From NCBI GenBank assembly GCA_964411415.1, contig CAYPKV010000002.1:1-44655 (forward strand): 44,655 nucleotides of DNA, in the 5' to 3' direction. The position numbers were made by a program, and so were the translations under genes. Under the pieces are notes generated by a model. That model worked only from the letters and a program-made list of their open reading frames with translations, was not told where the DNA came from and did not search any database. The DNA comes from an uncultured bacterium (GTDB lineage: Bacteria > Deinococcota > Deinococci > Deinococcales > Trueperaceae). Shown here in pieces: positions 4,501 to 21,286 of the stretch (position 1 is the first letter of the stretch; each line of letters opens with the position of its first letter).

Positions 4501-4932
4501 GCCAGGAACCTGGCAGTCGAACGCTGCAGGCAGCAGCAACTGCTGACCGTCCGGCAAGGTCACGGTCACGTCTGAGATGCCGCCCTGGGCGCCCGCACCA
4601 AGCACCCCGCTGACCTCATTGCCGATCTGCACGAGAACGTTCGAAGCCGGAGGCAGCATGACAGCGCGCTCTGATTCCACTGCCAGCGCTAACTTCTCAA
4701 GCGGAACCCCGCACACCTGCACCAGCAGGTTGTCCCGCTGCCCCGGACCGCTGCCGACCAGCCGGTGGAAGTTCGCGCCGCTTAGCGTAATGCGGGTGTC
4801 TTCGGTCACAGCCCCGCTCGCAGGGTCAACGCTCGAAAGTGTGGCCTTGGGCAACCAGCCCTCGCGGCCCACGCATGAGACCAGCAACAGGGTCAGGACT
4901 ATTGGCGCCAGAGCGCGTCGGGGCCGACTCAT
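1528..4932 (-). CDS. 1134-aa surface lipoprotein: IPT/TIG domain, about 6 PKD domains, Big_2 domain and SBBP-type beta-propeller repeats
   Basis: The signal and lipobox read LLLVS|C. There are six repeats of the PKD signature (PLTVTFDxxxSxDxDGxIxxYxWDFGDG-like). A Big_2-like segment reads VASVSSSGEVTALADGTATITATS. The C-terminus carries repeated 'DxxGNIYxTG' propeller motifs. The ATG at 4932 overlaps the upstream stop (ATGA). Confidence 0.85.
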   Translation of the reverse strand: MSRPRRALAPIVLTLLLVSCVGREGWLPKATLSSVDPASGAVTEDTRITLSGANFHRLVGSGPGQRDNLLVQVCGVPLEKLALAVESERAVMLPPASNVLVQIGNEVSGVLGAGAQGGISDVTVTLPDGQQLLLPAAFDCQVPGVSVSISTDVASGPAPLTVTFDGGGSTSATGVISEYQWDFGSDATGAGETVSHTFTDVGIHEVTLLVIDDTGASGESTVQIEVVNSAPVAVVSVEPASGTADAPVTVTFDAGASSDADGDIITYDWIIDGLPAGTGATVSHTFGRSGNYDVNLVVTDSRGAISSSRLHYSVGNSAPVAVFTTTPDTAIGAGPLPVTFDASGSHDPDGAITGYQWDFGDGATGTGSTVSHTFMSGTYTVTLSVEDDEGHTSSVTGQVLVDNTPPLAQFTVSVDPATGPAPLTVQFDASESSDADGSIVSYAWEFGTSGTGSGVSPEHTFLRSGNQTVTLTVTDNEGATATADLLVIVSNASPVAAASVTAVDGYEVSFSAAGSYDPDGGPLTYSWDVADGSSIITAETFTHTYSQSGDYEVTLVVTDSESGTDSRQVVARPINFAPTAIANTDPSPASGYAPLSVNLAATPGSLDQHGGEIISYEWKLAGDVISDSAVHDHVFSSEGVHTVTLTVTDNEGTADSVDVAVEVLASEVQTVWINEGDQGLLGGEVVSLTATVVGLGNFDLAVEWQSSDPGVASVSSSGEVTALADGTATITATSVQNPAVSDSVQVSVRIPLGTALDERILDVAVDQDDNIYLTGSVNSAGGATGTDILLIKLDPQGRLLWRETYGTPYADSARAIALDPVDNSIILAGETHGNLETGAIGNSHDLFLMKINAADRTPEWTYQYGGPGWDLANDLIVDSYGDIYFTGAFNRGANSNCPADCGRIIVGHADSTGTSVNVVLHGHNTAGTGEAIALDNDGNIVVAGNSLGVFNDQIQGGSGAYLMEVDPVNLAERTKLVFIDSSAMDYADEIHVAPDGSIIWVGRDNTLYNQYASTVILVFNPDYSERSARWFEPMGGYYSVAGSFLDSDGFLVIGANLSGVAMELSRLNMSNLETVASVQVAVPASPEPPYAHLRMEGVAKQTDGTIVAAGYTDANYFEPNQGDDDPFVWIVDPW

Positions 4933-5393
4933 TGTCCTGGCCCGAATGTATAGCTGACGCCGAGAGCCACGTTGGGGTTGATGCCTGCAGCGCTCAGGTT
5001 GACGCTTCCCTCAAGAAACGCCGACCACTGGCCCGCAAACCGGTAGTTGATGCCGGTATAAGCAAAGCCGCTGGCAAGTACACCTGACCCACCAGACAAG
5101 AAAGACAAGCCGAGCCCGCCACCGACGTAAGGCCGCAGCATTCCATCATCCGCGCCAAGCAGTGCCGACACCCCCAGTGCCGGTGCCGACGAGAAGTCAA
5201 TCGGCGCCGAAACATCGGCCCTGGCAGCTACCAGCAGCGGAACGTCGTTCGCCATGAACCTGAGGACTGGAACAGCCGCATGCACATCCAATGCCACGAC
5301 CCAGTTGTGCGGCGCCGTGACAGCAGTGCCGACAGACACGCCGTTAACAGCCCATACAGCGCTCAGCTGCATGGCAACACAGAACACCAGCAC
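4929..5393 (-). CDS. Small outer-membrane beta-barrel protein (mini-barrel copy A), first gene of an operon with the PKD lipoprotein
   Basis: The ORF is 4929..5561. The likely start is the GTG at 5393, which gives signal peptide VLVFCVAMQLSAVWA|V. The sequence has an alternating hydrophobic pattern, is Gly-rich, and ends ...ALGVSYTF(GPGQ). It is paralogous to 20834..21286 and to the C-terminus of 15679..16956. The start is uncertain. Confidence 0.55.
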   Translation of the reverse strand: MLVFCVAMQLSAVWAVNGVSVGTAVTAPHNWVVALDVHAAVPVLRFMANDVPLLVAARADVSAPIDFSSAPALGVSALLGADDGMLRPYVGGGLGLSFLSGGSGVLASGFAYTGINYRFAGQWSAFLEGSVNLSAAGINPNVALGVSYTFGPGQ

Positions 5394-5421
5394 ATGGCGA
5401 CAACGCCCAAACAATTGATCA

Positions 5422-5452
5422 AGTTGCAAGATTACCCCCCCGGTTTGCAACT
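5422..5452. promoter_or_regulatory. 8-bp inverted repeat AGTTGCAA-N15-TTGCAACT in an AT-rich patch upstream of the mini-barrel/PKD operon
   Basis: The repeat is seen directly in the sequence. It sits next to the TTGATCAA palindrome (5415..5422) and lies 30-60 bp upstream of the proposed start at 5393. Confidence 0.3.
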
Positions 5453-5635
5453 TCAGAATACCCGGCTCACGCTTCGGTCCTGGGGCGGATATCACTCGTG
5501 TAGGAACGAACAACTCGCGATCGCGAGGACGACAGGGCGCGCCGATCGAGTCGACCTGCAAATCACTCAGGCAGCGGCACTACCCGGTGTGGTCAGTCGA
5601 CCGGACACACTGCCACCGCTCAGCTGCCGTTGCAG

Positions 5636-6220: not shown

Positions 6221-6339
6221 TTATTGTAGCACCATCAGAACGCGTCTCGATGATTGCGAACTGGAACCCGTAGCACCCAACGCGGATTGACCGATAATCA
6301 GTGCAGAGGCGGGCAACGCAGCCACCTGACAGGAGCAAC

Positions 6340-7844: not shown

Positions 7845-7929
7845 CCTGACTCAGCCGGGCCGCGCGCTTAATGTGGTCTCTTCCGCTACGCCTCCAGGGT
7901 GCCGTTGAGACAGGCCACTGCAGGTGGCA

Positions 7930-8778: not shown

Positions 8779-8832
8779 CCCAGCCAGCGTACCGGACAGG
8801 TGAGGTCTGCACCGGCCTGGGTCGGCAGAGCT

Positions 8833-9252: not shown

Positions 9253-9429
9253 GGGGCCTCCTGTTACAGCAGTGTAGCGCGGCAGCAGCAGTGACTGTCC
9301 CGTTGCATTGTGACGGCTGTGATGCGGTGGTGGCGGCCGTGGTGCTATTAGTAAGATACATACAACAGCGCCCTGGACGTCGGTCACTTGCGGTTCCAGG
9401 GAGTAACTCAGGCCGGAGGTGGGGTGCCG

Positions 9430-10914
9430 ATGTCGAAAGGTGCAGCAAACAGGTTCAGGCTCTCAGTGCTGACCAGGCTGGCAGTTGCAGCAGTACTGTT
9501 CGTTGCAGGCTGCACCGTACAGCCGGCTGCCGCACCCGCAGAACGAGCGGCTGATGCGGACCGGCCGGCGACCACCATCACCGTGTTCCTGGCGGAAAGT
9601 GATACCCGTGGGTCCATCGCGGAGAAGTTCGGCGGTGATGTGCTCGTTTGGCATGGACCGGGCGACGTTACCTCAGAACCGACTGACGCAGGTACTGACT
9701 ACCTGCCTTTCGCTGTGCTTACAGTCACTGAGCCGCTCACCAGTCTCCGCACCGCTGCAGCCTGTCCTGAACAGCCGGTACCCGGCGATACCTGTGTGGA
9801 ACAGAACTCTCCAGGCTTGCTGGCCGGCGCAGACCAGTCACATATCTGGGGATCAGGCCGGTCGAACCACTTCGACACCGTTGTCATCGAAGGCCGCTCG
9901 TCACTCTGGAATGAGGGCAGGTCATCCCTGTGGAACGAAGGGAACGTCTTCGTCGGTCTCCCGGAGAACACCGACCTGTGGAGGCGCACCAACCTGCGTA
10001 TGGCGCAGGACCGCTCCATGGCGGGCGAACGGCTCGGTGACGGCATCGTCGTCGCCGTCATCGATACGGGCATCGACCTCGAGCACCCCTGGCTGGTACC
10101 GGCGCTGACGGATCCGTCGACGTGGCTTGACCTGGTTGACGGTGACACCTGGCCGATGGAACACGGTTCGTTCACCGACCAGGCAACACCAGCCTACGGA
10201 CACGGCACAGCCATCGCCGGGGTGATCCGCCAGATCGCTCCCGCCGCGCAGATAATGCCAATCAGGGTGCTTTACCCTGACGGTCACGGTTACGTGAGCG
10301 ACGTCGTCGCAGCCATTGCGCACGCGATCGAACACGGCGCTGACGTCATCAACCTGTCACTCGGCGGGCGGGTCCGCAGCGAGGCGCTCAACCAGGTGCT
10401 CGGCCTGGCCACCCAGCAGGGTATCCACGTGGTCATGTCCGCCGGCAACACCGGCCTGCTGCCGGCAGCCCGCGACAGGGGACAGGTCACCTGGCCCGGC
10501 CAGGACAGCAACGACGTCCACATACCAGGCCATCACTACCGCCTGACGGTCACCAGTGTCGGAAGCGGCGACCTCAAGTCAGACTTCGCAGCCCACGGTC
10601 CGGCAGTCGGCCTGGCAGCACCGGGTGAACTGGTCTGGTCATTCGCCCCGGACGACCAGCTGGCAGCCTGGTCAGGTACGTCACTCGCCGCGCCCATGGC
10701 AGCAGGAGCCCTTGCCCTGGCGCTCGCTGAGGACGCAGCAGGACTCCTGGCGGCACAGCCGCGTGACCTGGTCGGCATCCTTGCCAGATCCGGCAGCCAG
10801 CTGTACGCGGACGGTGCGAACAGCGATTACCGCGAAGGCTCGCTGCTCGGCTACAGCCGCCTGGACTTCTGGGAGTTCCTCCACGCCGTGCTTGAACAGA
10901 ACAGCGATGAGTGA
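9430..10914 (+). CDS. Subtilisin-like S8 serine protease lipoprotein
   Basis: GGAGGTG precedes the ATG at 9430. The lipobox is LFVAG|C. The catalytic residues are D (VAVIDTGID), H (HGTAIAG), N (SAGNTG) and S (GTSLAAPMAAG). Confidence 0.9.
   Translation: MSKGAANRFRLSVLTRLAVAAVLFVAGCTVQPAAAPAERAADADRPATTITVFLAESDTRGSIAEKFGGDVLVWHGPGDVTSEPTDAGTDYLPFAVLTVTEPLTSLRTAAACPEQPVPGDTCVEQNSPGLLAGADQSHIWGSGRSNHFDTVVIEGRSSLWNEGRSSLWNEGNVFVGLPENTDLWRRTNLRMAQDRSMAGERLGDGIVVAVIDTGIDLEHPWLVPALTDPSTWLDLVDGDTWPMEHGSFTDQATPAYGHGTAIAGVIRQIAPAAQIMPIRVLYPDGHGYVSDVVAAIAHAIEHGADVINLSLGGRVRSEALNQVLGLATQQGIHVVMSAGNTGLLPAARDRGQVTWPGQDSNDVHIPGHHYRLTVTSVGSGDLKSDFAAHGPAVGLAAPGELVWSFAPDDQLAAWSGTSLAAPMAAGALALALAEDAAGLLAAQPRDLVGILARSGSQLYADGANSDYREGSLLGYSRLDFWEFLHAVLEQNSDE
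9889..9945 (+). repeat. Tandem in-frame duplication encoding EGRSSLWN-EGRSSLWN-EGN in the protease pro-region
   Basis: The two 24-nt units, gaaggccgctcgtcactctggaat and gagggcaggtcatccctgtggaac, encode identical peptides. They differ in 6 of 8 codons, and every difference is synonymous. Confidence 0.9.
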
Positions 10915-12853
10915 GCCAGCCGGCGAAGCGCTGACACAGACTGTGACGACCGCCGAACAACTCCTGGAGCGTGCCCAGGCAGCCTGGACCGGTGACGACC
11001 CTGCCGTGGCCAGGGAACTTGCCGGGCAGGCGCTTCAGCACCCGGATGTGCAGCGGGAAAGCAGTCTTGAGTTCGAAGCCAGGATGCTCCTCGGCCGTAT
11101 CCAGCGCGCCAGCGGCAGCCTCGCTGAAGCTGCAGCCAGTTTCGCCAGCGCGGCTCAGGCTGCCCGGCGGAGCGGGGACGTCGGCAGGGAACTCAGTGCC
11201 ATCAACCTGCAGGCAAGTGCCGTACACGGCCTCGGACAGCAGCGGCGCGCACTGGGGATGCTGGAACGCGCCCTGCAGACTGCCATCGCAGCCGGGGAAC
11301 TCGACCGTGCCGCCGGCATCAACAGCAACATCGGTGAACTGCGCCGCGCAGCCGGCAACTATCCCGAGGCGCTCGAAGCACTGGTCGCCGCGCAGGAACA
11401 CTACGACGCCCAGGAAACTGTCAGCCGCGCAAGCGCCGTTAACCTCATCAACCTCGGCAACCTGAACCAGGACCTGGGCAGGCCCACAGAAGCACGCCGC
11501 CTGTTCAGCCAGGCGCTGGAAGTCGGCAGCGAACTGCCGGATGATGAACTGATTGCGGTCGCGCTGAACAACCTGGCCAACTGCGACCTGGCTGCAGGCG
11601 ACTACACAGTGGCAGGCGAACGGTTCCGGGAAGCACTGCGGCTGGCCCGGCACCTGTCATCCGCGGCACTGGAGATCGACAACTTAGACGGCCTGGGTCA
11701 GGTGCTGTGGGCACTGGGAGACCATTCCACGGCGGCCGGCGTCTACGCGGAAGCGCTCGAAGTGGCTCGCACGCTTGACGACAGGGAAGGGCAGCTTGAC
11801 GCACTGGTGAACCTGGCTGAAGCTGCCGGCAGGCTCGGTCAGCATGCCGATGCCATAACGAGCCTGCTCGAGGCACTCGGGCTGGCCGAGGAACTCGAGC
11901 TGCGCAGCCGGCAGTTCGAGATACACCGGATGCTGTCAGATGAGTACGAAGCAGCCGGTGATCCGTGGGGCGCGCTGCGCCACTCTCGACTTTTCCACGC
12001 GCTTGAGAGCGCCGTCTTCAACGAACAGAACGAGGAGCGGATCAGTGAGCTGCTCGTACGCTTCGAACTCGACCGGTCCCAGCACGAAGCTGAGAAGTAC
12101 AGGATACGCACCGAGATCATGCAGGAAGCCATCGAGCAGGCGGAGGACCGTATCCGCGAACGCACGGCTGAACTCGAGGAAGCGCATCTGGACCTGGTGG
12201 CCCGCCTGGCACTGGCAACCGAGTTCCGCGACGACAATACTGGCCAGCACATCCATCGGGTCGGCCGCTCAGCTGCAGTCCTGGCCTGGCTGCTCGGTTT
12301 CAGTCGCGATGACTCAGCCTTGCTGTACTTCGCAGCGAAACTGCATGACGTCGGAAAGATCGGCATCCCTGATGCGGTACTGCGGAAACAGGGCCGCCTG
12401 ACGGGCGAAGAGCAGCAGCTGATCCACGATCACACTGTCACCGGAGCGCGGTTGCTCTCAGGCGGCCGCTCGCGGTTGTTGAAGACCGCAGAACAGGTAT
12501 GCCTCGCTCACCACGAACGTTTCGACGGCAAAGGTTACCCGTTTGGCCTGGCAGCCGCGACCATACCCTGGTGCGCACGCATCGTCACCGTAGCTGACGT
12601 GCTCGACGCTCTGATCCATGAGCGGCCCTACAAGGAAGCGTGGCCCCTCAATGAAGCGCTGGCGGAAATCCGCAGCCAGGCGGGACGCCAGTTCGATCCG
12701 GATGTCGTGGAAGCGTGCCTGCAGGCGTTCGGCGGCCCGGCTGACCTCAGTCCGTTCGACACCTTGAGCACACGTGAAGAACTGGACGAACTGCTTGAGA
12801 ACATCAGGCCATGGCGCCTGAACGGTGACGTGGAACGCGTCAGCGAATGGTGA
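10907..12853 (+). CDS. TPR-repeat, coiled-coil and HD-GYP domain protein (putative c-di-GMP phosphodiesterase)
   Basis: The ATG at 10907 overlaps the protease stop (ATGAGTGA). The N-terminal half contains TPR-like repeats. The HD-GYP motifs are 'KLHDVGKIGIP' and 'HHERFDGKGYPFGL'. Confidence 0.85.
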   Translation: MSEPAGEALTQTVTTAEQLLERAQAAWTGDDPAVARELAGQALQHPDVQRESSLEFEARMLLGRIQRASGSLAEAAASFASAAQAARRSGDVGRELSAINLQASAVHGLGQQRRALGMLERALQTAIAAGELDRAAGINSNIGELRRAAGNYPEALEALVAAQEHYDAQETVSRASAVNLINLGNLNQDLGRPTEARRLFSQALEVGSELPDDELIAVALNNLANCDLAAGDYTVAGERFREALRLARHLSSAALEIDNLDGLGQVLWALGDHSTAAGVYAEALEVARTLDDREGQLDALVNLAEAAGRLGQHADAITSLLEALGLAEELELRSRQFEIHRMLSDEYEAAGDPWGALRHSRLFHALESAVFNEQNEERISELLVRFELDRSQHEAEKYRIRTEIMQEAIEQAEDRIRERTAELEEAHLDLVARLALATEFRDDNTGQHIHRVGRSAAVLAWLLGFSRDDSALLYFAAKLHDVGKIGIPDAVLRKQGRLTGEEQQLIHDHTVTGARLLSGGRSRLLKTAEQVCLAHHERFDGKGYPFGLAAATIPWCARIVTVADVLDALIHERPYKEAWPLNEALAEIRSQAGRQFDPDVVEACLQAFGGPADLSPFDTLSTREELDELLENIRPWRLNGDVERVSEW

Positions 12854-12860
12854 CGGCGGT

Positions 12861-14180
12861 TCAGTTCACCCTGCCCCAGTAACTGAGGAGCAGACCAGTC
12901 CGGTCGCTCTGCTGAAGCTTCTCGACCAGGCTGCTGACGTAGTTCGCAGCCGTCTTCGCTGATATGCCCAGTTCACTGGCGATCTGGCCGTTCTCCAGCC
13001 CCCTGGCCACCAGGCGCCACACTTCCCGTTCCCTGGGCAACAGACCCGGGTCATCGAGGATCGGTCCGGAGTAAACCCGGTGCCCGGCAGCGACACGCTC
13101 AAGGTGACCACGCAACTGACGGATGCCTTCCGGTTCCACCACAAGCCCGTCGGGCTGCAGGTCCTGAAGGTCGAGCAGGTAAGCGATGGAGCTCTGACCG
13201 GTCACCACGAGCGAACCGGTACTGACGGACGGCAGCGTAGAGAGCGCATAACCAAGCGGCAGATCCAGAATCAGGGTCAGTGGCACATCGAAATGCCAGT
13301 CCTGCATGAGGTTGCGCGCCAGGTTGCCGGCCGTGACGGAACCGGAGAGGATGTTGAGGTTATGGACCGGCGCACGGACTCCGACCACGTTGCTGACCGG
13401 GACCTCTACCCGGTTCGGGCGTGCAGTCAGGAGCCGCGCCTCTGCCAGGCGGAGTACCTCAAGTCCAGGTGCTTCGGTGAGCTGCACCCACACGTGTTTG
13501 AGGGCCAGTCCACTGCGCAGCAGGAAAGCATCGAAGCGCGGTCGTTCACGGGCGGGCACGAGTAGCACCATCCGCTGCTCATCGACGCTGTAAGCCTGGT
13601 CGTCCTCGGTCAGCATGCCACGGAGCCTGTGGGCGAACGTACGCAGTGCCAGGGGACCACCAGCGTCGGGTCCGGAGTTCAGCGCGATGATGGCCAGCAC
13701 GTAATCGGACCGTGTTCCGCTGCGCAGGTCGCGTTCCAGCATCTTCATCCTGGGCAGACCGGTGAGCCAGTCACGTCTCGCCTGGCGCGCCAGTTCCTCG
13801 GCATAACCTGCTGCAGTCATAAGCGACAGCAGCCGGTCACTGTACAGGGACGCCAGCAGCTGGGCTCCGGGCGTATCCGGGATGTCGTGGGTGATGAGCC
13901 AGAGCGGCTCGGGTGGACCCATGTATAGCTCGAGCAGCGATGGCCCGTACTCAGGCAGAACGACCTTGCCCTGCTTGAACGTATCGGTGGCGTGCAGCTG
14001 ATCCAGGACCGTGAGGCTGGCTCCGGGCAGCAGGCGCTCCAGAGCCGGAGCGGCCTGATCCCTCAGTCCGTCGAAATCCAGGGTTGCGAGCGGCGCAATT
14101 GCCGCGGCAACCCGTTCATGTATCGACAGGTGGTCGGCCGGCAGGTTGGGACCGGAATCGGTGGCGGATGAAACTGCCAT
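12861..14180 (-). CDS. Regulator paralog 1: N-terminal domain, degenerate GGDEF-like domain, receiver-like domain and LuxR-type HTH
   Basis: The ORF extends to a TTG at 14219, but I prefer the ATG at 14180. 'RRDWLTGLP' marks the start of a GGDEF fold, and the GGDEF position reads 'SVDEQ'. A receiver-like segment reads 'LTLILDLPLGYAL...LVVTGQ'. The C-terminal HTH is 'REREVWRLVARGLENGQIASELGISAKTAANYVSSL'. Confidence 0.7.
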   Translation of the reverse strand: MAVSSATDSGPNLPADHLSIHERVAAAIAPLATLDFDGLRDQAAPALERLLPGASLTVLDQLHATDTFKQGKVVLPEYGPSLLELYMGPPEPLWLITHDIPDTPGAQLLASLYSDRLLSLMTAAGYAEELARQARRDWLTGLPRMKMLERDLRSGTRSDYVLAIIALNSGPDAGGPLALRTFAHRLRGMLTEDDQAYSVDEQRMVLLVPARERPRFDAFLLRSGLALKHVWVQLTEAPGLEVLRLAEARLLTARPNRVEVPVSNVVGVRAPVHNLNILSGSVTAGNLARNLMQDWHFDVPLTLILDLPLGYALSTLPSVSTGSLVVTGQSSIAYLLDLQDLQPDGLVVEPEGIRQLRGHLERVAAGHRVYSGPILDDPGLLPREREVWRLVARGLENGQIASELGISAKTAANYVSSLVEKLQQSDRTGLLLSYWGRVN

Positions 14181-14245
14181 GCTCCAGCATACGCATGGCA
14201 GTGAGTGTCGAAGTGGCAATGGTCACGTACGGCTTCGGTGTCAGC

Positions 14246-15649
14246 TCACTGGTTGGGGCCAAGCTGGTCCCAGTAGGCCAGAGCTACTTCACTGCGACTG
14301 TTCAGGTGCAGCTTGTCCCTGAGACCAGTGAAGTAGTTGGCTGCCGTGCGCTCGCTGATGCCCATCACCGTTGCGACCTGCGAGTTGCTGAGGCCGCGGG
14401 CAATGAGCCGCCACACCTCCCGTTCGCGGGGGAACAGTCCGCTGCCTTCGATGACCGGACCCGCGTAGACCCGTTCGCCCCGTGCGATTGTCTCAAGGTG
14501 GTTCCGGAGTTCCTGCACGGCGAGCGTACCCACGACCAGCCCTTCGGGTTCATGATCCATCAGGTCATAAAGGTACCCGCTGGAAGCACCATCGGTCACC
14601 GTCAGCACGGGGCGGCGAACCGTCGCGAGCCTCTCCAGGGCGAAACCCGTCGGCAGATCCAGGATCAGGCTTATCGGCCTGGAGAACTGCCAGTCCCTGG
14701 TCACGTGTTCGAGCAGGGCCCGGCCTGTTGACGTGCCGGACAGCCGGGTGAGCGGGTGAAGTACGGGCCGGATGCTGCGCCGCACCGGTTCTGCACTCCT
14801 CGCCCGACCCGCCTGGTCCCGGCGTGGATCGCGACCCGTCAGGCGTGTAAGTGCCAGGTTGACCACGTCGCTGCCGGTGGCTTCACCGGTGAGCGCATAT
14901 GCCAGGCGGGCCTCGGGTGCCAGGCGACTGACCGCCGCCTGCAGACGGTCCAGCTGGGCCTCCGGAGTCAGTACTGCCGTGATGTTTCCTGCCAGCTGGA
15001 ACGCGCGGTCTTCCTCGGCAAGCGTCAGACGCAGCGAGTGCGCGAACCAGCGTTTGCGCAGCTGCTGCATGCGCTTACCGTGGCTGCTGTCCAGCGCAGG
15101 CAGGTCGATGAGCAGCACTGCTAGGGGTGGTGCAAACGGATCCAGCTCCTGGAGTGCTGCTTCGAGGCTCTCAGCCCAGTGGAGCCCGGTGAGCCAGTCA
15201 CGGTGACTCTGCCGGCCCAGCTCCTCGGAGTAGCCGCTGAGGTGCAGGGCACGCTGCAGCCGGTCGAAGAACAGGTCCAGGATGACCGTCACTGCCGGGT
15301 CGTCAGCGAAGCCGCTGGCGCTGAACCACACTGGCTCTGGCGGTCCCAGGTAGACGTCACTGTAGACGCACGTGCCGTCTTCGAGCCTCACCAGTCCGCG
15401 CTGGTCTTCGCTGCTGGAGCCGGTGCCGGTAGGCCGGGAGTGCTCCGTGCTCACCTGCAGCCGTGCCTCAGGCACAAGCTGCTGCAGGGCATGCGCAGCG
15501 CGGATCAGTACCTGATCGAAAGTCAGCTCGTCGAAACCTCCGGTAGCGTCCACCACCAGCCGGTAGTACTGTTCAAGCTGTTCCAGCTCCTGCTGGTCAT
15601 TCATATCAGTGCCTGTGGCCTTCTGATCTGCGTTGTTCACACCCTGCAT
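14246..15649 (-). CDS. Regulator paralog 2: same architecture as 12861..14180
   Basis: The sequence contains 'HRDWLTGLH'. The GGDEF position reads 'LAGNI'. The receiver-like segment is 'ISLILDLPTGFAL...VLTVTDG'. The HTH is 'REREVWRLIARGLSNSQVATVMGISERTAANYFTGL'. It is colinear with paralog 1 along its whole length. Confidence 0.7.
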   Translation of the reverse strand: MQGVNNADQKATGTDMNDQQELEQLEQYYRLVVDATGGFDELTFDQVLIRAAHALQQLVPEARLQVSTEHSRPTGTGSSSEDQRGLVRLEDGTCVYSDVYLGPPEPVWFSASGFADDPAVTVILDLFFDRLQRALHLSGYSEELGRQSHRDWLTGLHWAESLEAALQELDPFAPPLAVLLIDLPALDSSHGKRMQQLRKRWFAHSLRLTLAEEDRAFQLAGNITAVLTPEAQLDRLQAAVSRLAPEARLAYALTGEATGSDVVNLALTRLTGRDPRRDQAGRARSAEPVRRSIRPVLHPLTRLSGTSTGRALLEHVTRDWQFSRPISLILDLPTGFALERLATVRRPVLTVTDGASSGYLYDLMDHEPEGLVVGTLAVQELRNHLETIARGERVYAGPVIEGSGLFPREREVWRLIARGLSNSQVATVMGISERTAANYFTGLRDKLHLNSRSEVALAYWDQLGPNQ

Positions 15650-15678: not shown

Positions 15679-16956
15679 TCAGAAGCGCAGGCGCACGCCG
15701 CCGCCGAGGGCAGCGAGGCCGTCACCTGAACCATCGAAGTACGGCCGGTAACGGCCTTCGATGAACACTCCGAAGTTCTTCGCGAAGCGGTAGCCGGCCC
15801 CCAGGATCAGTTCCCCGAAGAGAGCAGTACCGGTCTCCTCGAAGCTGGCACCCATCCCGACGCCCGCGTAACCATCAACGCTGTCGACCGTAGCACGGTA
15901 CGTGACGGCTCCGGAGACACTAAGTGGAACCTCACCAAAGCCGAAGTCGACGGTCAGGCGTGCTCCCAGGTTGCCGACGATGGCGTCATGGCCGACCGCT
16001 ACCTGGCCGACGAGACCGCCGTTGGGTGCACTGCCGTACAGCGCCAGTGAGATGTTGAACGGTGCGCGGTCGGGAAGCAGGCTGTCCTCCAGGCGGGTGA
16101 TCCGCTCCTCATGATCGGCCAGTACAGCCCTGATCTCACTCAGGTCAGTTTCCATGCCTTGGACTCGCGCCTCCAGCAATGCCAGGTGACCGGACAGTGT
16201 GCCAACCCGGTTCTCCAGTTCGCTGAGCAGGCTGTCCTGGGCCATGTTCCCACGTTCCAGTGCTGCCACGCGGGCTTCCAGGGCCCCCAGCTGGTCACGG
16301 AGGCTGACGCCAAGGGCCATCTCATCGTGCAGCTGGTCAGTCAGAGCGTCCAGCCTGGCTGCCAGAGCAGAGGTGTCAGCGTCGTCTTCAAGTGCAGCAA
16401 GTCGGTCGCGGATCGCGTCCAGTTCGGCATCGGTAGCGTCGGCACGGCCCTCCAGCGCCGCGATCGCCAGCCACAGTTCACTGGCGTCGAACACCGCCGG
16501 GCTGGCCTGCAGCACCGCGATGGCGTTCCAGAGTTCAGCGAGTTCAGCCTCGTGCCGGTCGAGGGCAGCAGCGGCATCAGCCAGGCTGCCGTCGTGTTCA
16601 GCGACCAGTGCCGTCAGGCCACCGAGTTCGTCCTGCAACGCCGAGACTGCCTGGCGCAGCATGGCGATCTCGTCCGGATCGAACGCTTCCAGGTTGAAGC
16701 TGCTGATCATTCGGGCGATGACGACGGCCATCTCGGCGCGGGTGATGTCCTCGGGCCAGCGGTACGTGCCGTCGGGGTAACCGATGTAGATGCCGCGGCT
16801 GACGACGAGTTCGACTGCGTCGTCGGCCCAGGTTCCGGGCGCCTCAGCGATGGCACGGTTGACCTGGGCGGGCGTGCCCGGGGTCACGGGTATCTGTGCG
16901 AACGCCGAACCGGCGAGCGCCACAGACAGTGCGAGTACGGCAAGGGATTTTCTCAT
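15679..16956 (-). CDS. SLH domain, long coiled coil and C-terminal mini beta-barrel outer-membrane tether (OmpM/SlpA-like, short form)
   Basis: AAGGAG precedes the ATG at 16956. The signal peptide is ...AGSAFA|Q. The SLH motif reads 'WADDAVELVVSRGIYIGYPDGTYRWPEDITRAEMAVVIARM'. There are about 190 aa of A/L/E/D-rich heptads. The last 128 aa alternate hydrophobic residues and end ...GGGVRLRF. Confidence 0.8.
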   Translation of the reverse strand: MRKSLAVLALSVALAGSAFAQIPVTPGTPAQVNRAIAEAPGTWADDAVELVVSRGIYIGYPDGTYRWPEDITRAEMAVVIARMISSFNLEAFDPDEIAMLRQAVSALQDELGGLTALVAEHDGSLADAAAALDRHEAELAELWNAIAVLQASPAVFDASELWLAIAALEGRADATDAELDAIRDRLAALEDDADTSALAARLDALTDQLHDEMALGVSLRDQLGALEARVAALERGNMAQDSLLSELENRVGTLSGHLALLEARVQGMETDLSEIRAVLADHEERITRLEDSLLPDRAPFNISLALYGSAPNGGLVGQVAVGHDAIVGNLGARLTVDFGFGEVPLSVSGAVTYRATVDSVDGYAGVGMGASFEETGTALFGELILGAGYRFAKNFGVFIEGRYRPYFDGSGDGLAALGGGVRLRF

Positions 16957-17051
16957 GATCGGCTCCTTGGCTTTCTGTTGGGCATGAGCTGCCCCTCCCG
17001 CGGTTGCAGCGGGCCAGAAACGTGTCTTTCGTGTGGTGGTCTGGCAGTGGT

Positions 17052-17090
17052 CCTTCCTGGGGCGGCCAGCAGGTGGCGGCCCCAGGAAGT
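17052..17090 (-). terminator. Hairpin after the 1136-aa gene (stem CTTCCTGGGGC/GCCCCAGGAAG)
   Basis: An 11-bp perfect inverted repeat starts 8 nt beyond the stop at 17098. The SLH gene, with its own SD, follows 95 nt later. Confidence 0.5.
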
Positions 17091-17097
17091 GTGAGGC

Positions 17098-20000
17098 TTA
17101 CGGGAGGAGTACGTTCAGTACGGTCACGTCGTTCTCGTTGAACTCGAGGCCGAGGACCCGGAAGATGCCGTTGTCCAGGAGGCCGCTGAGCAGATCGTCG
17201 AGGGGCAGGTTAGCTCCGACGCTGCCGTTCGTGATGCCGAGCACGTCGTTCACCAGGCTGGTCACCACACCGAGCAGCTCGTTCAGGAGCGTGTTGACTG
17301 GCAGCAGACCGCCAAGCGCTCCATCGATGTCGACCTGCGCATCCAGCTCCACTTCGAGGTCGGCGAGGAGATCGGTGATCAGCGTGCCGAGCGAGGCAGA
17401 CGGTACTGTCTGGGTCTTGGGGTACGGGCCGGTGAAGGTGATTGTGTTTGCCCCGACGGTCCTGGAGCTGTCGGCACGGGCGAGGACGTCTGCGGTGACT
17501 TCGACACTGGCGAGCGGCAAGCCGAGGAGCGTCGCGGCGATGTCCAGATCGACTGTGGCGATCGTGCCGAAGTCCGCGGTCACGGGTGTGGTGCGGCTGC
17601 GGTCGAAGAACACAACGGGATCGACGCTGCCCAGGTGGAGGTGCGCCAGCGTGCCGAGCGAGGCGATCGTGACGGAGCCGTCAGTTTCGTTGATCGCTGT
17701 GACTTCGCCCTCGAAGCCACCGACTTCAGCGAACAGGTCGAGGTCAGTGACGGTCAGGTCGAGGTTGAGGTCCAGCAGCGCGAGGGCGTCCAGCAGACCT
17801 GCTACGAGTCCCAGGAGGCCGCCGACCAGTCCACTGCCTTCATCGAGGCTGTCAAGGCTCAGGCCGAGACCGTTCAGTTCCACTGCCAGCCTGATGCCGG
17901 CAGAGCGGAAGCTGGTCGAGCCGTCAGTGCTGCCCAGTCGGTCAACCCGGGCCACGGTGATGACCGGGGGCTCAACGATCTGCAGGTGGATACGTGCGAG
18001 CGCGCCAGCACCCAGGCCGTCGATGACACCATCCAGGCCGAGCAGCGGCAGCAGGCCACCGACGCCACTGAGGCCGATCTCGACGGGTTCAGGAGCGCCA
18101 ACCACGTTCTGGGCGTTGAACAGCTCGAGGAAGAGTGCGACCAGGTCAAGGACACTCAGTTCGATGTTGCGGAGGCTGAGCAGGTCTTCAGGATCGACGT
18201 TGATCAGATCACCGAGTTCGATCGGCAGGTCTTCGGCAGGCAGCCCGTCGAGCAGGTCCTGAAGCGGAAGGGCAGCAGCCGTGCCGGACACCACGTCCAG
18301 GAGTGCACCGAGTACGTCAGCCAGATCGACTTCGTCCAGGAGGACGATTTCCGGGCCGGTGGCGCCGAGGTTCAGCGACAGGACTTCGAGCAGGTCGAGC
18401 AGGTCCACCTGCGTATTGAGGAGCGCGTCATTGCTGAGGACCGTCAGGTCGGCGTTCTTGCCGAGCAGTCCGGCCAGCAGCGGTGCGAGGAGGCCGCGCT
18501 CGTCAGCATCGAGTTCGATGAGCGTTGAGCCCGTACGGACGACGGCGGTGGTGATGCTCGCCGGGTCGATGACGGTGATCGTCACGAGTTTGACGTCGTA
18601 ACCGCCGGCGCTGTCAGCCGCAACCAGTACGGCCTGGTACTGACCTGCATCGGCATAGGTGTGGTTGTCGCTGCCGCTGGCAGCTCCTTCAGTGGGGACG
18701 CTGCCGTCGCCGTAGAACAGCCAGGTGCTGACCGGCAGGCCAGCCGGGCTCTCTGCGGTCCAGTCGAAAGTGACTTCAAGCGGCATGTCACCTGAATCAG
18801 GTGTTGCAGTGAACGCGCTGATCACGGGGCTGTCGGCGTCTGCTGCGGGCAGGACCGTGACGGTGATGCTCTCCCGGGCGGTACGGTTGTCCTCATCCTG
18901 AATGACGAGTGAGGGTGTGTAGACGCCGGGCTGGCGGTACTGGTGCGAGAAGCTGCCGTCGTCGCAGTCGAACACGGTGTGCTCCGCTGAGCCGTCGCCC
19001 AGGTCGAGCACGCAGATGGTGCCCAGATCGGCGGTGATGCCCCATTCGAACGAGACAGTCAGTGGTGCGGTCCCGGCAGCAGGGTCAGCTTTGAACTCGT
19101 CGATGGTCGGGGGCTGGCCGCTGCCGCTGCCGCTCACGGACACGGTCGTGCTGCGCTTGATGACAGAGCCGTCGCTGAGCAGTGCAGTGAGTTCAGCTGT
19201 GTATGCTCCGGCGGTGGCGTAGTTGTGGTCCGCAGAAGATGCGAGCTCAGTCGGGGTGATCTCCGGCGTCAGGTCGCCGAAATCGATGCTGATGCTTTCG
19301 ACGAGGTCAGACGGGTCCAGGATGAGCCAGTGGAAGGTGGTGTCGAACGGTGCGGCGCCACCTGCAGGATCAGCGAGGAACGCTGCTACCGCCGGCTGGA
19401 CGGGTGCCGGATCGCTGCTGACTTCTACGGTCACTGAACGGGTGCTCGTGCCGGCGGCGTTGCTGGCGGTGAGCGTGTAGGTAGTGGTGGCGTCCGGTGC
19501 GACGCTGGTGCTGCTGTTCGGTGCGACGTCGCCGATGCCCTGATCGATGGTGACCGTGTCGGCACCGACGATCACCCAGCTGAGGGTGCTGGTCTGGCCA
19601 GGTGCGATGCGGGCGGGATTGGCGTTGAAGCGTCCGATGAGTGGCGCTCCGGCCGGGTCCTCACGGACGTAGACCGTGACGGTGCGGCTGCTCGTACCGG
19701 CGCTGTTGGTGGCCCGCAGTGTGTAGGACGTCGTTGTGGTCGGGCTGACTTCCGCAGTGCCGGTGGCGCTTACCGTTCCTACTGTCGGAGAGATGGTGAT
19801 GCTGTCAGCACCGGATACGTTCCAGCTCAGGGTGCTGACGTCACCGCGTTCGATTCCTTCGGGATCAGCGCTGAAACTGGTGATGAGCGGCCGGCCGCTG
19901 TCGTCGTCCGAACCGCGGACAGTGACGGTGGCAGTCGCCGTTACGGTGCCGTGGGCGTTGCTGGCCGTCAGCACGTATTCGGTAGTGTCTACGGGTGAGA

Positions 20001-20508
20001 CCGTGCGGTTGCCGGTGTTGCCGGCTACCGTACCGATGCCCTGGCTGATGGTGATGTCGTCTGCGCCGGCCACGTCCCAGGAGAGGACGCTGCTCTCGCC
20101 GGTGCTGATTTCAGTCGGGTCTGCCTGGAACCTGGCGATGAGCGGAGGGTCGTCAGGCTGGCGGACTGAGACGGTCACCTCAGCCTCAGTGCTGCCACGG
20201 CGGTTGGTGGCCACGACCGTGTAAGTGGTCGTCTCAGCGGGCGTAACCTCTCTGGTTCCTTCCGCGTCGACAGCATCCCCGAACGGCTGCAGAACGACAG
20301 AGTCGACTTCACCTGTGACCAGCCAGTTCAGAGTAGCGGATTCACCTGCGGTGATCGCCTGTGGTGCCGCGCTGAACTCCACTTCTGGTGCGGCTCCTGG
20401 CAGTCTCACCTGAGCGCAGGCTGCCAGCAGGACCACCAGCGCCAGCATCAGCAGTGGCTGTATTGCCCTGAAGGTTCTTCGCGATTGACTGCTGCCCATG
20501 CGTTGCAC
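17098..20508 (-). CDS. 1136-aa surface lipoprotein: 4 Ig-like repeats, 3 PKD-like domains and a 484-aa Leu/Asp/Gly/Val-rich C-terminal region
   Basis: AGGAGGT lies 6 nt upstream of the GTG at 20508. The lipobox is LLAA|C. Four roughly 95-aa repeats carry the pattern 'xGxSxxLSWxVxGADxxTIxxGIGxV...TTTYTLTAxNxxGT'. Three PKD-like units carry 'APLxVxFxW'. I cannot recognise the C-terminal region. Confidence 0.85.
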   Translation of the reverse strand: MQRMGSSQSRRTFRAIQPLLMLALVVLLAACAQVRLPGAAPEVEFSAAPQAITAGESATLNWLVTGEVDSVVLQPFGDAVDAEGTREVTPAETTTYTVVATNRRGSTEAEVTVSVRQPDDPPLIARFQADPTEISTGESSVLSWDVAGADDITISQGIGTVAGNTGNRTVSPVDTTEYVLTASNAHGTVTATATVTVRGSDDDSGRPLITSFSADPEGIERGDVSTLSWNVSGADSITISPTVGTVSATGTAEVSPTTTTSYTLRATNSAGTSSRTVTVYVREDPAGAPLIGRFNANPARIAPGQTSTLSWVIVGADTVTIDQGIGDVAPNSSTSVAPDATTTYTLTASNAAGTSTRSVTVEVSSDPAPVQPAVAAFLADPAGGAAPFDTTFHWLILDPSDLVESISIDFGDLTPEITPTELASSADHNYATAGAYTAELTALLSDGSVIKRSTTVSVSGSGSGQPPTIDEFKADPAAGTAPLTVSFEWGITADLGTICVLDLGDGSAEHTVFDCDDGSFSHQYRQPGVYTPSLVIQDEDNRTARESITVTVLPAADADSPVISAFTATPDSGDMPLEVTFDWTAESPAGLPVSTWLFYGDGSVPTEGAASGSDNHTYADAGQYQAVLVAADSAGGYDVKLVTITVIDPASITTAVVRTGSTLIELDADERGLLAPLLAGLLGKNADLTVLSNDALLNTQVDLLDLLEVLSLNLGATGPEIVLLDEVDLADVLGALLDVVSGTAAALPLQDLLDGLPAEDLPIELGDLINVDPEDLLSLRNIELSVLDLVALFLELFNAQNVVGAPEPVEIGLSGVGGLLPLLGLDGVIDGLGAGALARIHLQIVEPPVITVARVDRLGSTDGSTSFRSAGIRLAVELNGLGLSLDSLDEGSGLVGGLLGLVAGLLDALALLDLNLDLTVTDLDLFAEVGGFEGEVTAINETDGSVTIASLGTLAHLHLGSVDPVVFFDRSRTTPVTADFGTIATVDLDIAATLLGLPLASVEVTADVLARADSSRTVGANTITFTGPYPKTQTVPSASLGTLITDLLADLEVELDAQVDIDGALGGLLPVNTLLNELLGVVTSLVNDVLGITNGSVGANLPLDDLLSGLLDNGIFRVLGLEFNENDVTVLNVLLP

Positions 20509-20833
20509 TTGATTACCTCCTGAAAAGGTTGCGGAGTCTCAGCCGAACCGCCGCTGAGCGGATTGCGGCAGGTTCCTGCAGCTGAGTTACTCTGCAGCCA
20601 ATCGTCGTCCGTGTGTACCGGACAGCGTTAGAGGGTTACTCAAACACCGGGTGTGGTTTCCGCCCGGCATGACTGGGAGAATCTCCCACCCAAGCTTCAG
20701 ATGTGCGTCAGGGACGTGCGTACTGCAGCGATGTGGAAAACTCCACGTTCGGGCTTTGAACCGTGAATCTCGCCTGCAGCGGGGCCGCCTGAGCAGTATG
20801 CTGGGCGCATCACTGCATCACGAAAGGGGTCTC

Positions 20834-21286
20834 ATGAGGCTCATCCGAATACTGGCAGCACTGCTGATCGTCAGCACAGGCAGTGCCCTTGCGTACAACT
20901 CACTCACGGTCGGCCTGCAGGCCGAGGCGCACCAGTTCTTCGTCGGTTACAACGCCCACGCCGTGTTGCCGCTGGCGACTGTGCCGGGTGGCACCGGCGG
21001 CAGGGCCTTCTCGGCACGCGTCGACTTCTCAGCTGGTGATGTGGTGTACGCCGGCCTCGCTGCCGTGATCAGCGGCGCAGGACCCGGCCTTCAGCCGTTC
21101 GCTTCTCTGGGTGGCGGTGCAGCGTTATGGGGTGGACCGCTGCTGCCAACAGTCCAGGGCCTGCTTGGAGTGCGGGTGCAGCTGACAGGTGGACTGTGGG
21201 CGACAACTCAGTTCCAGATCCGCTTCGCGACCCGTGCCGGGCACCTGACCCCCAGCCTTGGTGTCGGCCTGGAGTACAGCTTCTGA
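20834..21286 (+). CDS. Small outer-membrane beta-barrel protein (mini-barrel copy B)
   Basis: The ATG at 20834 follows GAAAGGGG. The signal peptide is MRLIRILAALLIVSTGSALA|Y. The sequence ends ...LGVGLEYSF with a terminal aromatic residue. It is colinear with 4929..5393. Confidence 0.7.
   Translation: MRLIRILAALLIVSTGSALAYNSLTVGLQAEAHQFFVGYNAHAVLPLATVPGGTGGRAFSARVDFSAGDVVYAGLAAVISGAGPGLQPFASLGGGAALWGGPLLPTVQGLLGVRVQLTGGLWATTQFQIRFATRAGHLTPSLGVGLEYSF

What the first reader, a model, noticed from the sequence alone, without database searches (positions are those of the whole stretch)
4929..21286. Three paralogous mini beta-barrel modules, each next to a giant PKD/Ig lipoprotein
A roughly 130-aa Gly-rich amphipathic module ending in an aromatic residue occurs three times.
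- A stand-alone secreted protein at 4929..5393, translationally coupled (ATGA) to the 1134-aa PKD lipoprotein.
- A stand-alone secreted protein at 20834..21286, divergent from the 1136-aa Ig/PKD lipoprotein.
- The C-terminal 128 aa (15679..16065) of the SLH/coiled-coil protein immediately downstream of that same giant gene.
Shared blocks can be seen by eye: 'VG..A..H....V....HA.LP', 'AR(V/A)DFS', 'P(Y/F)..(G/L)GGG' and a terminal 'G(V/L)(S/E)Y(T/S)F' or 'RLRF'. Known OmpM/SlpA-type tethers carry much larger barrels. A small barrel that occurs both free and fused to SLH, and is repeatedly paired with huge lipoproteins, looks like a dedicated anchoring or export partner. I cannot map it to a described system.
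Basis: partly seen in the sequence, partly recalled or inferred. Interest (0 to 1): 0.65.

Follow-up and report, generated by a model that had tools for sequence, protein, structure and literature searches.

The report
Mini outer-membrane barrels paired with lipoproteins
Three tiny eight-stranded outer-membrane barrels are real: one belongs to an already described cell-wall tether, one is an orphan, and one forms a tightly coupled, apparently undescribed gene pair with a giant surface-type lipoprotein.

Summary
A (4929..5429, -), B (20834..21286, +) and the C-terminal 128 aa of C (15679..16956, -) are all predicted 8-stranded OmpA/OmpX-like outer-membrane barrels.

A and B are clear homologues (hhalign 97.7%, E 2e-12). 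They belong to a small family of about 63 clusters with no Pfam or NCBIfam model. The C barrel is only a remote relative (79-86%).

- **C:** SLH + coiled coil + 8-stranded barrel is not new. This architecture was described in 2022 for Deinococcus and Thermus (PMC9388160). The giant2->C->LuxR->LuxR operon is conserved only in a subclade.
- **B:** its position beside the giant lipoprotein is kept only in relatives about 84% identical. It is not kept at 62% or 43% identity, so it is probably incidental.
- **A:** this is the interesting part. In 9 of 9 family members examined (28-69% identity), the barrel's stop codon overlaps the start of a lipoprotein gene. Its G-rich Shine-Dalgarno lies in the barrel's post-Phe Gly tail. 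The partner always starts with a lipobox. Wherever enough sequence is visible, a conserved IPT/TIG domain follows, then a variable Ig-type array.

I read this as a stoichiometric barrel/lipoprotein anchoring or display pair. That function is inferred, not shown.

The parts
4929..5429 (-). Gene A: stand-alone 8-stranded outer-membrane barrel, 166 aa. It has a Sec signal peptide ending VWA and the beta-signal ...GVSYTF followed by the tail GPGQ. It is the A-type subfamily of the A/B family.
   Evidence: Homologous over its full length to B, whose AF2 model has 8 strands.
4929..4948 (-). Translational-coupling junction. ATGA stop/start overlap at 4929-4932, and a G-rich Shine-Dalgarno-like stretch (GGGCCAGGA) inside the Gly-Pro-Gly codons of A's tail.
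   Evidence: The same arrangement (ATGA, GTGA or TGATG, with GGGG/GGAGG 7-11 nt upstream) is present in L023, L024, L025, L026, L028 and L029.
1528..4932 (-). Partner lipoprotein, 1134 aa. It has the lipobox LLVSC, an IPT/TIG domain, six PKD domains, Big_2 and an SBBP/delta-60 beta-propeller region.
4480..4932 (-). Conserved N-terminal module of the partner. It comprises a signal peptide, a lipobox Cys, a linker of about 10 aa and an IPT/TIG domain with two conserved Cys (..VCGVPL.., ..AFDC).
   Evidence: Alignment A7. TIG PF01833 scores 24.2 bits against a cutoff of 20.9 when this part is scanned alone. The module is conserved in L023, L024, L029, L030 and the partial L028, while the rest of the protein differs.
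20834..21286 (+). Gene B: stand-alone 8-stranded outer-membrane barrel, 150 aa. Signal peptide ends ALA and the protein ends ...GLEYSF. It is the B-type subfamily, with no tail and no coupled downstream gene.
15679..16956 (-). Gene C: SlpA-like outer-membrane-to-peptidoglycan connector, 425 aa (signal peptide, SLH, coiled coil, 8-stranded barrel).
   Evidence: The architecture is described in PMC9388160.
16726..16833 (-). SLH domain of C (residues 42-77) with the (T/S)RAE motif. R73, A74 and E75 are invariant in 25 homologues.
   Evidence: Pfam SLH scores 24.7 bits against a cutoff of 20.8. Alignment A3.
16078..16677 (-). Coiled-coil stalk of C (residues 94-293).
   Evidence: AF2 helices 94-151, 159-188 and 196-293. 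Coiled-coil family hits. 28% charged residues.
15679..16065 (-). 8-stranded barrel of C (residues 298-425, ending ...GGGVRLRF).
   Evidence: AF2 strands 300-424, pLDDT 79-93. Foldseek matches OprF-N at TM 0.73, plus NspA, OmpX, PagL, OmpA and Thermus 3dzm.
17098..20508 (-). Giant lipoprotein 2, 1136 aa. It has the lipobox LLAAC, four Ig-like repeats, three PKD-like domains and a Leu/Asp/Gly-rich C-terminal region of about 480 aa with no Pfam or PDB match. It is the first gene of the conserved giant2->C->LuxR->LuxR block.
17052..17089 (-). GC-rich hairpin just after the giant2 stop codon, between giant2 and C.
   Evidence: -31 kcal/mol, z -4.0. Hairpins of different sequence sit at the same place in L001 and L002.
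12861..15649 (-). Two paralogous LuxR/GerE-type regulators (467 and 452 aa, 36% identical), tightly spaced behind C with gaps of 29 and 26 nt.

Best explanation
The region holds three minimal 8-stranded outer-membrane (OM) beta-barrels of two kinds.

**(1) C is a SlpA-like OM-to-cell-wall connector.**
- It has a signal peptide, one SLH domain, a coiled coil of about 200 residues and a C-terminal OmpA-like 8-stranded barrel.
- By analogy with SlpA and OmpM, it should trimerise through the coiled coil. The trimer would place three small barrels in the OM and bind wall polymer through the three SLH domains (inferred).
- In this lineage the gene sits in a conserved block behind a giant Ig/PKD lipoprotein and ahead of two LuxR-type regulators.

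**(2) A and B belong to one unnamed family of stand-alone 8-stranded barrels, about 130 aa when mature.**
- The A-type branch is half of a conserved two-gene cassette.
- Its stop codon overlaps the start of a lipoprotein gene.
- The ribosome-binding site for that gene lies in the Gly-rich tail that follows the barrel's beta-signal Phe.
- The partner always begins with a lipobox. Where enough is visible, a conserved IPT/TIG domain follows, then a variable array of PKD, cadherin or Big domains.
- Most likely the two are made in fixed proportion and form a complex. In that complex the BAM-inserted barrel would hold the lipidated N-terminal TIG module at the OM, possibly exposing it at the surface (inferred; RcsF-OmpA is the nearest precedent).

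**(3) B is an orphan paralogue.** Its place next to the second giant lipoprotein is recent and probably has no functional meaning.
For: **Fold**
- AF2 gives 8 strands for B and for the C barrel, with Foldseek matches to 8-stranded OM barrels.
- Composition is membrane-like.
- All three proteins carry signal peptides and end in, or close to, a C-terminal aromatic residue.

**A-B homology**
- hhalign 97.7%, E 2e-12.
- 63 clusters in 1.84 billion representatives match the A/B profile. Nearly all are 91-208 aa.

**C as a known class**
- SLH scores above the Pfam cutoff.
- RAE of the TRAE motif is invariant in 25 homologues.
- The central region is predicted as long helices.
- Relatives occur in Truepera, Trueperaceae, Deinococcales and Deinococcaceae MAGs.
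- The architecture is published.

**A cassette**
- Overlapping stop and start codons and a lipobox partner are present in the window and in L023, L024, L025, L026, L028, L029, L030-32 and L034. That is 9 of 9 family members looked up.
- The TIG module scores above cutoff in 4 partners and aligns across partners.
- The remaining domains differ. L029 has cadherin/Big_9 in a 508-aa protein, and L030 has a protein of at least 2189 aa.

**C block**
- The block is conserved in L001 and L002.
- A giant2 homologue overlaps the C homologue by 8 nt in L013.
- A partial giant2-like gene precedes the C homologue in L010.

**Transcription**
- Compost metatranscriptome contigs span both junctions.
Against: - No physical interaction, OM location or surface exposure is shown. 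Co-folding could not be run.
- The A family is small and known only from metagenomes plus one genome of unknown taxonomy. Some of the 9 contexts share descent.
- The lipoprotein linker of about 10 aa is much shorter than the RcsF linker that threads through OM proteins.
- An 8-stranded barrel has no obvious lumen for a polypeptide.
- The C barrel is linked to A/B only by an 86% hhalign probability.
- More distant C homologues (L003, L006, L007, L008) have unrelated neighbours.
- The RNA contigs are shallow and could include DNA carry-over.
Confidence: 0.6

Rival explanations
1. The adjacency means nothing. All three are generic structural small OM proteins of the OmpX/OmpA-barrel type. They happen to lie near large surface-protein genes, which are common in this genome.
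For: - B's neighbourhood is not conserved at 62% or 43% identity.
- Free C-type barrels sit next to an unrelated ImuB-like gene.
- Distant C homologues have unrelated neighbours.
Against: - A shows 9 of 9 overlapping stop/start junctions with a lipobox partner at 28-69% identity.
- The partner N-terminal module is conserved while the rest of the partner varies.
- The giant2-like gene followed by C is kept down to about 40% identity of C and 30% of the giant protein, with an 8-nt overlap in L013.
Confidence: 0.15
2. The mini-barrel is a dedicated translocon, working like Slam/T11SS or a two-partner system. It would carry the giant lipoprotein across the outer membrane.
For: - The genes are tightly coupled to a presumed surface lipoprotein, as Slam genes sit next to their substrates (PMC5449769, listed).
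- HPI-type Ig-array lipoproteins of Deinococcus are surface proteins whose OM attachment is unresolved.
Against: - The barrel has only 8 strands with very short loops and no periplasmic domain.
- There is no DUF560, POTRA or TPR hit.
- Known protein translocons have 12 or more strands (established knowledge).
Confidence: 0.1
3. A and B are soluble periplasmic 8-stranded barrels of the lipocalin or FABP type. They would chaperone the lipoprotein's acyl chains rather than sit in the membrane.
For: Foldseek also lists a lipocalin-like lyase (4tq2, rank 13) and Rv0813 (2fwv, rank 27) for the B model.
Against: - The top matches are all OM barrels.
- Mature A and B have 7-8% charged residues and no Lys.
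- The non-hydrophobic strand face is half Gly/Ala/Ser/Thr.
- They carry a terminal ...Y-S/T-F beta-signal and have no helix after the signal peptide.
Confidence: 0.05

Closest known systems
SlpA-like 8-stranded OM-peptidoglycan connectors of Deinococcus-Thermus (D. radiodurans WP_010887767 and WP_027480303; T. thermophilus WP_011228967; von Kuegelgen et al. 2022, PMC9388160)
   Same: C has the same tripartite plan: N-terminal SLH with the SCWP-binding motif, a central coiled coil and a C-terminal OmpA-like 8-stranded barrel. The taxonomic neighbourhood is the same too.
   Different: - Direct homology to those three accessions was not tested.
- Here the gene lies in a conserved block behind a giant Ig/PKD lipoprotein and ahead of two LuxR regulators.
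- Free-standing copies of the same barrel exist in related MAGs.
SlpA (30/28-stranded) and OmpM porin-tethers
   Same: SLH + coiled coil + OM barrel, with trimer logic in which one SLH domain per chain requires three chains.
   Different: The barrel here has 8 strands, so it is not a porin. It can anchor but cannot take up nutrients.
OmpA N-domain, OmpX, Ail, NspA, PagL, OprF-N and the Thermus major OM protein (PDB 3dzm)
   Same: The 8-stranded antiparallel OM barrel fold. TM-scores normalised to the target reach 0.6-0.73.
   Different: - No Pfam or NCBIfam model matches.
- Loops are minimal.
- No catalytic triad is conserved across the family. Only P54, R70, G105 and G126 are invariant.
RcsF-OmpA/OmpC/OmpF complexes (BAM-assembled lipoprotein-barrel pairs)
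   Same: A lipoprotein is held or exposed by an OM barrel that can be as small as OmpA. This is the nearest mechanistic precedent for the A pair.
   Different: - There is no sequence relation.
- RcsF is small, has a long disordered linker, and is not encoded next to its barrel.
- Here the genes overlap and the partner is a giant Ig array.
Slam / type XI secretion (DUF560) with adjacent surface lipoproteins
   Same: An OM barrel gene sits next to the gene of its lipoprotein client.
   Different: Slam is a 14-stranded barrel with a periplasmic TPR domain and is found in Proteobacteria. No such domains occur here.
Inverse autotransporters (intimin/invasin)
   Same: An OM barrel plus an Ig-like repeat array projecting from the cell.
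   Different: - Those are a single chain with a 12-stranded barrel and the linker inside the pore.
- Here there are two genes, 8 strands, and a passenger with its own lipoprotein signal.
HPI S-layer lipoprotein of D. radiodurans (PMC10120038)
   Same: A lipobox followed by an array of Ig-like domains in a Deinococcota envelope. How HPI is bound to the OM is stated to be unclear.
   Different: No homology was tested, and no S-layer role is shown for the window's proteins.

Membership tests
SlpA-like 8-stranded OM-PG connector (for C) | N-terminal Sec signal peptide | tested here: met
   MRKSLAVLALSVALAGSAFA|Q, read directly and conserved in A3.
SlpA-like 8-stranded OM-PG connector (for C) | Single SLH domain carrying the SCWP-binding TRAE-type motif | tested here: met
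   Pfam SLH scores 24.7 bits against a cutoff of 20.8. The motif reads ITRAEM, and R73, A74 and E75 are invariant in 25 sequences.
SlpA-like 8-stranded OM-PG connector (for C) | Central coiled coil (trimeric) | tested here: inconclusive
   Long helices are predicted at 94-293, with coiled-coil family hits. The oligomeric state was not tested.
SlpA-like 8-stranded OM-PG connector (for C) | C-terminal 8-stranded OM barrel with a terminal aromatic beta-signal | tested here: met
   8 strands at 300-424 with pLDDT 79-93, ending in RLRF. Foldseek matches 8-stranded OM barrels.
SlpA-like 8-stranded OM-PG connector (for C) | Sequence homology to the published D. radiodurans and T. thermophilus members | not tested
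- Homologues lie in Truepera, Trueperaceae and Deinococcaceae MAGs.
- P0094, another SLH-coiled coil-small barrel protein, matches at 99.6%.
SlpA-like 8-stranded OM-PG connector (for C) | Binds peptidoglycan/SCWP and resides in the OM | not testable with these tools
   This needs biochemistry.
8-stranded OM beta-barrel fold (OmpA/OmpX-like) (for A and B) | Signal peptide plus eight antiparallel amphipathic strands closing a barrel | tested here: met
   - AF2 model of B: 8 strands, pLDDT 82, pTM 0.74.
- Foldseek matches.
- A aligns to B over its full length.
- Strand faces have mean hydropathy +2.3 and -0.8.
8-stranded OM beta-barrel fold (OmpA/OmpX-like) (for A and B) | C-terminal beta-signal ending in Phe | tested here: met
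   B ends in LEYSF. A has VSYTF followed by a 4-residue tail, which is typical of the whole A-type branch.
Curated small-OMP families (Pfam OMP_b-brl, OmpA_membrane, Ail_Lom, OmpW; NCBIfam) | Match to the family HMM | tested here: not met
   No family matches at E <= 1 for A, B or the C barrel. One OmpA-type protein, P0097, is hit weakly by the A/B profile at E 7e-4.
Slam / T11SS | DUF560 14-stranded barrel with a periplasmic TPR domain | tested here: not met
   No Pfam hit, and the barrel has only 8 strands and about 130 aa.
Inverse autotransporter | Barrel and Ig-array passenger in one chain, with a 12-stranded barrel | tested here: not met
   The genes are separate, the partner has its own lipoprotein signal peptide, and the barrel has 8 strands.

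The most novel reading that the evidence does not exclude
The A-type mini-barrel and the lipobox-TIG module would form a previously undescribed two-component surface-display system of Deinococcota-like diderms. A BAM-inserted 8-stranded barrel, made one-to-one with its partner through translational coupling, would capture the lipidated N-terminus of an interchangeable giant Ig-array lipoprotein. It would fix or expose that N-terminus at the cell surface. It might do so by housing the linker or the acyl chains in its Gly/Ala-rich lumen. This would give a first molecular handle on how Ig-array (HPI-like) surface lipoproteins are attached to the outer membrane in this phylum.
Probability: 0.3. 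Interest if true: 0.7.

Novelty: new variant of a known kind. Interest (0 to 1): 0.5.

Why it matters
How lipoproteins reach and stay on the outer face of the outer membrane is solved for only a few Proteobacteria. For Deinococcus, the HPI S-layer paper states that its attachment to the outer membrane is unclear.

A minimal barrel that is always translationally coupled to a lipoprotein gives a small, directly testable candidate for that attachment step. The partner's conserved N-terminal module and swappable Ig array strengthen the case.

The pair could also serve as a compact scaffold for surface display. The result further corrects the record for C, which is a member of an already described tether class rather than a new system.

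Tried and rejected
- **Pfam and NCBIfam on A, B and the C barrel:** no family at E <= 1.
- **Metagenome-contig scans:** The two scans that ran, with the A-family alignment A1 and the B-family alignment A6, found no confirmed relative. Synteny therefore rests on exact-protein look-ups, all 12 of which were used.
- **Promoter and terminator consensus scans** around both junctions: nothing found.
- **PDB sequence search** with the C-terminal 490 aa of giant2: no match.
- **Literature search** for the accession of the one complete genome that carries an A-type cassette (CP070651 / GCA_020354625): nothing found, so its taxonomy stays unknown.
- **Search for a statement that Lol is absent from Deinococcus-Thermus:** no explicit statement found, so I do not use that argument.
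- **Catalytic, PagL-like role for A/B:** considered because of the Foldseek matches, then rejected. The His and Ser residues conserved in the B branch are not conserved across the family.
- **Large lipoprotein upstream of C in Truepera-like L004/L005:** it is unrelated to giant2 (TSP3 repeats) and separated from C by an AbiEii-like gene, so it was not counted as conserved synteny.

Full report
**What is there**

- Gene A ends at 4929. Its TGA is embedded in the ATG of a 1134-aa lipoprotein gene (CAATGAGTC).
- Gene B (20834..21286, +) lies 325 nt from the divergent 1136-aa lipoprotein gene 'giant2' (17098..20508, -).
- Gene C (15679..16956, -) follows giant2 after 141 nt.

One correction applies to A. 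Homologues of A are 166 aa, and a TTG at 5429 has GGGGGG just upstream. A is therefore 4929..5429, not ..5393. This adds a positively charged n-region to its signal peptide.

**Are the three modules related, and are they barrels?**

Pairwise BLASTP is weak:

| Pair | Result |
|---|---|
| A-B | E 5e-4 |
| A-C | E 1e-4 over 42 aa |
| B-C | not significant |

Each protein has its own small set of homologues: 7 for A, 7 for B and 27 for C. Profile comparisons are clearer:

| Comparison | Probability | E-value | Extent |
|---|---|---|---|
| A family vs B family | 97.7% | 2e-12 | end to end |
| A family vs C family | 79% | 1.6e-5 | 71 columns |
| 35-sequence A/B profile vs C family | 85.6% | 5.5e-6 | 88 columns, reaching the C-terminus |
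| B family alone vs C family | 5% | 0.0075 | 95 columns, reaching the C-terminus |

- AlphaFold2 with these alignments gives eight strands for B (pLDDT 82, pTM 0.74).
- It also gives eight strands for C residues 300-424 (pLDDT 79-93), preceded by long helices at 94-293.
- Foldseek against the PDB returns 8-stranded outer-membrane barrels at the top for both models. These include OprF N-domain (TM 0.73 for the C model and 0.64 for the B model, normalised to the target), PagL, OmpX, OmpA, NspA, a designed transmembrane barrel and Thermus 3dzm.
- Composition agrees. Mature A and B have 7-8% charged residues, no lysine and 14-18% glycine. Their strands alternate between a hydrophobic face (mean hydropathy +2.3) and a face that is half Gly/Ala/Ser/Thr.

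So A and B are homologous minimal outer-membrane barrels. The C barrel has the same fold and is probably a distant relative.

No Pfam or NCBIfam model matches any of them. A full HMMER scan of 1.84 billion representative proteins with the A/B profile finds only 63 clusters, and almost all are stand-alone proteins of 91-208 aa. Two weak hits point to wider links: another SLH-coiled coil-small barrel protein (P0094) and an OmpA-type protein (P0097).

**Protein C is a known kind**

- C has a signal peptide, an SLH domain above the Pfam cutoff with the TRAE motif, a helical stalk of about 200 residues and the 8-stranded barrel.
- Von Kuegelgen et al. 2022 (PMC9388160) report two D. radiodurans proteins and one T. 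thermophilus protein with exactly this plan. They describe an SLH domain, a coiled coil and 'an 8-stranded beta-barrel reminiscent of OmpA'.
- They state that homologues are widespread in Deinococcus-Thermus and probably connect the outer membrane to the inner envelope.
- Genomic relatives of C lie in Truepera, Trueperaceae, Deinococcales and Deinococcaceae MAGs.
C is a new member of that class.
- One SLH domain per chain implies a trimer. This rests on established knowledge of SLH triads in SlpA and OmpM and was not tested here.
- The same barrel also exists free. Related MAGs encode a signal peptide plus a barrel about 50% identical to the C barrel (L012, L014, L015). L012 comes from the same MAG as the full-length homologue L001.

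**Is the pairing with giant lipoproteins conserved?**

The three cases differ.

*B: no.*
- Relatives at 84% identity keep the window's neighbours (L019-L022).
- At 62% identity (L018, L027) and 43% identity (L016, L017) the neighbours are unrelated genes.
- In L002, the giant2 homologue has no B-type gene upstream. L001 gives no information here because the contig begins inside the giant gene.

*C: partly.*
- The block giant2->C->LuxR->LuxR is kept in L001 and L002, with 49% identity for the giant protein and 60% for C.
- In L013, an 805-aa lipoprotein is homologous to giant2 (E 2e-48, including the unannotated C-terminal region). It overlaps the C homologue by 8 nt.
- L010 has a partial giant2-like gene in front of its C homologue.
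- Four other Trueperaceae-like or Deinococcales loci (L003, L006, L007, L008) have unrelated neighbours.

*A: yes, strikingly.*
- Nine family members were looked up: the window, P0033, P0032, P0034, P0045, P0050, P0051, P0063 and P0060. They are 28-69% identical to A.
- In every one, a downstream gene's start codon overlaps the barrel's stop codon (ATGA, GTGA or TGATG). Its product begins with a lipoprotein signal and a lipobox cysteine.
- Where at least 90 residues are visible, an IPT/TIG domain with two conserved cysteines follows the lipobox. This holds for the window, L023, L024, L028, L029 and L030.
- Scanned alone, this module passes the Pfam cutoff in four partners at 24-35 bits against 20.9.
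- The rest of the partner varies. The window and L023 have six or more PKD domains plus an SBBP propeller. L029 has cadherin/Big_9 repeats in a 508-aa protein. L030 has a PKD/cadherin protein of at least 2189 aa.
- A-type barrels carry a short tail after the beta-signal Phe (F-G-G-x-x), which B-type barrels lack.
- At the DNA level, the Gly codons of this tail supply a GGGG/GGAGG motif 7-11 nt before the partner's start codon. The tail thus doubles as the partner's Shine-Dalgarno sequence.
- The tail should predict coupling across the family. That prediction is an inference.

**Transcription**

The window sequence is present in compost, manure and soil metagenomes. Compost metatranscriptome contigs cover the A/lipoprotein junction (4776-4987) and the giant2/C junction (16887-17334). 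This fits co-transcription, but depth is low and DNA carry-over cannot be excluded.

**Mechanism**

- For C I adopt the published model of a trimeric outer-membrane-to-peptidoglycan tether. What is added here is that one branch of these tethers is genetically tied to a giant Ig/PKD lipoprotein and two LuxR-type regulators.
- For A, the overlap, the embedded ribosome-binding site and the conserved partner N-terminus with a variable remainder point to a stoichiometric complex between the barrel and the lipidated TIG module.
- A barrel with 8 strands and minimal loops can anchor or hold a partner but can hardly translocate a protein.
- The nearest precedent is RcsF held by OmpA, OmpC or OmpF after BAM-mediated assembly.
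- None of this is shown. It is inferred from gene structure and conservation.
- B is best seen as an orphan paralogue.

**Novelty and score**

- The fold is known, and the SLH fusion is known.
- The A/B family has no curated Pfam or NCBIfam model.
- I found no description of the barrel-plus-lipo-TIG cassette. That literature search was limited to the held library.
- I rate it a new variant of a known kind, with moderate interest (0.5).
- It offers a concrete, small test system for lipoprotein attachment or display in Deinococcota, where HPI attachment is stated to be unresolved.

Noticed in passing
window 17052-17089 (-); L001 about 3310-3345; L002 about 9885-9915: A strong GC-rich hairpin lies directly after the giant2 stop codon (-31 kcal/mol, z -4.0). 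L001 and L002 have a hairpin of different sequence at the same position, and none has a T-run. It may be an intercistronic attenuator or an mRNA-stability element that sets the giant2:C expression ratio.
   Followed up: partly
window 12861-14219 (-) and 14246-15649 (-): Two paralogous proteins of about 460 aa, 36% identical. Each has a C-terminal GerE/LuxR helix-turn-helix and a long N-terminal region without a Pfam match. They are tightly spaced behind C and conserved in L001 and L002.
   Followed up: partly
window 17098-18570 (-) (giant2 residues about 650-1136): A Leu/Asp/Gly-rich C-terminal region of about 480 aa has no Pfam or PDB sequence match. It is conserved in the shorter giant2 homologues of L013 and L010, so it is the part that travels with the SLH tether gene. 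Its fold is unknown.
   Followed up: partly
L012 88-585; L014 5289-5936; L015 2562-3044: Free-standing C-type barrels (signal peptide plus barrel) are about 50% identical to the barrel of C. In L014 and L015 they sit downstream of a conserved cytoplasmic gene of about 410-440 aa, without a Pfam hit, that resembles ImuB (Y-family polymerase). L012 is from the same MAG as the full-length homologue L001.
   Followed up: partly
L005 4182-8519 and 9064-9783; L004: In Truepera-like MAGs, a 1445-aa lipoprotein with bacterial TSP3 repeats lies upstream of the C homologue. It is unrelated to giant2 and separated from C by an AbiEii-like nucleotidyltransferase gene on the other strand.
   Followed up: partly
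window 9388-10914 (+) and 10556-12853 (+): The listed ORFs of a subtilase (Peptidase_S8) and a TPR + HD-domain protein overlap by 359 nt. The true start of the second is probably further downstream. Both are conserved next to the LuxR pair in L001 and L002.
   Followed up: no
window 21303-22079 (-) and 22195-24702 (-): A right-handed beta-helix (NosD-like) protein and a heavy-metal P-type ATPase with two HMA domains lie convergent to B. The same neighbours are kept in the 84%-identical relatives L019 and L022.
   Followed up: no
L034 1660-1869: The lipoprotein partner of the A-type barrel P0060 has an Arg/Pro/Gly-rich N-terminal extension of about 55 residues before its hydrophobic core and lipobox. 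This could be a mis-called start or an unusual long n-region.
   Followed up: no
L029 (NCBI CP070651.1, 2990643-3003176): This is the only complete genome found with an A-type cassette. The barrel is P0051 and its partner is a 508-aa cadherin/Big_9 lipoprotein. The organism could not be identified with the tools.
   Followed up: partly
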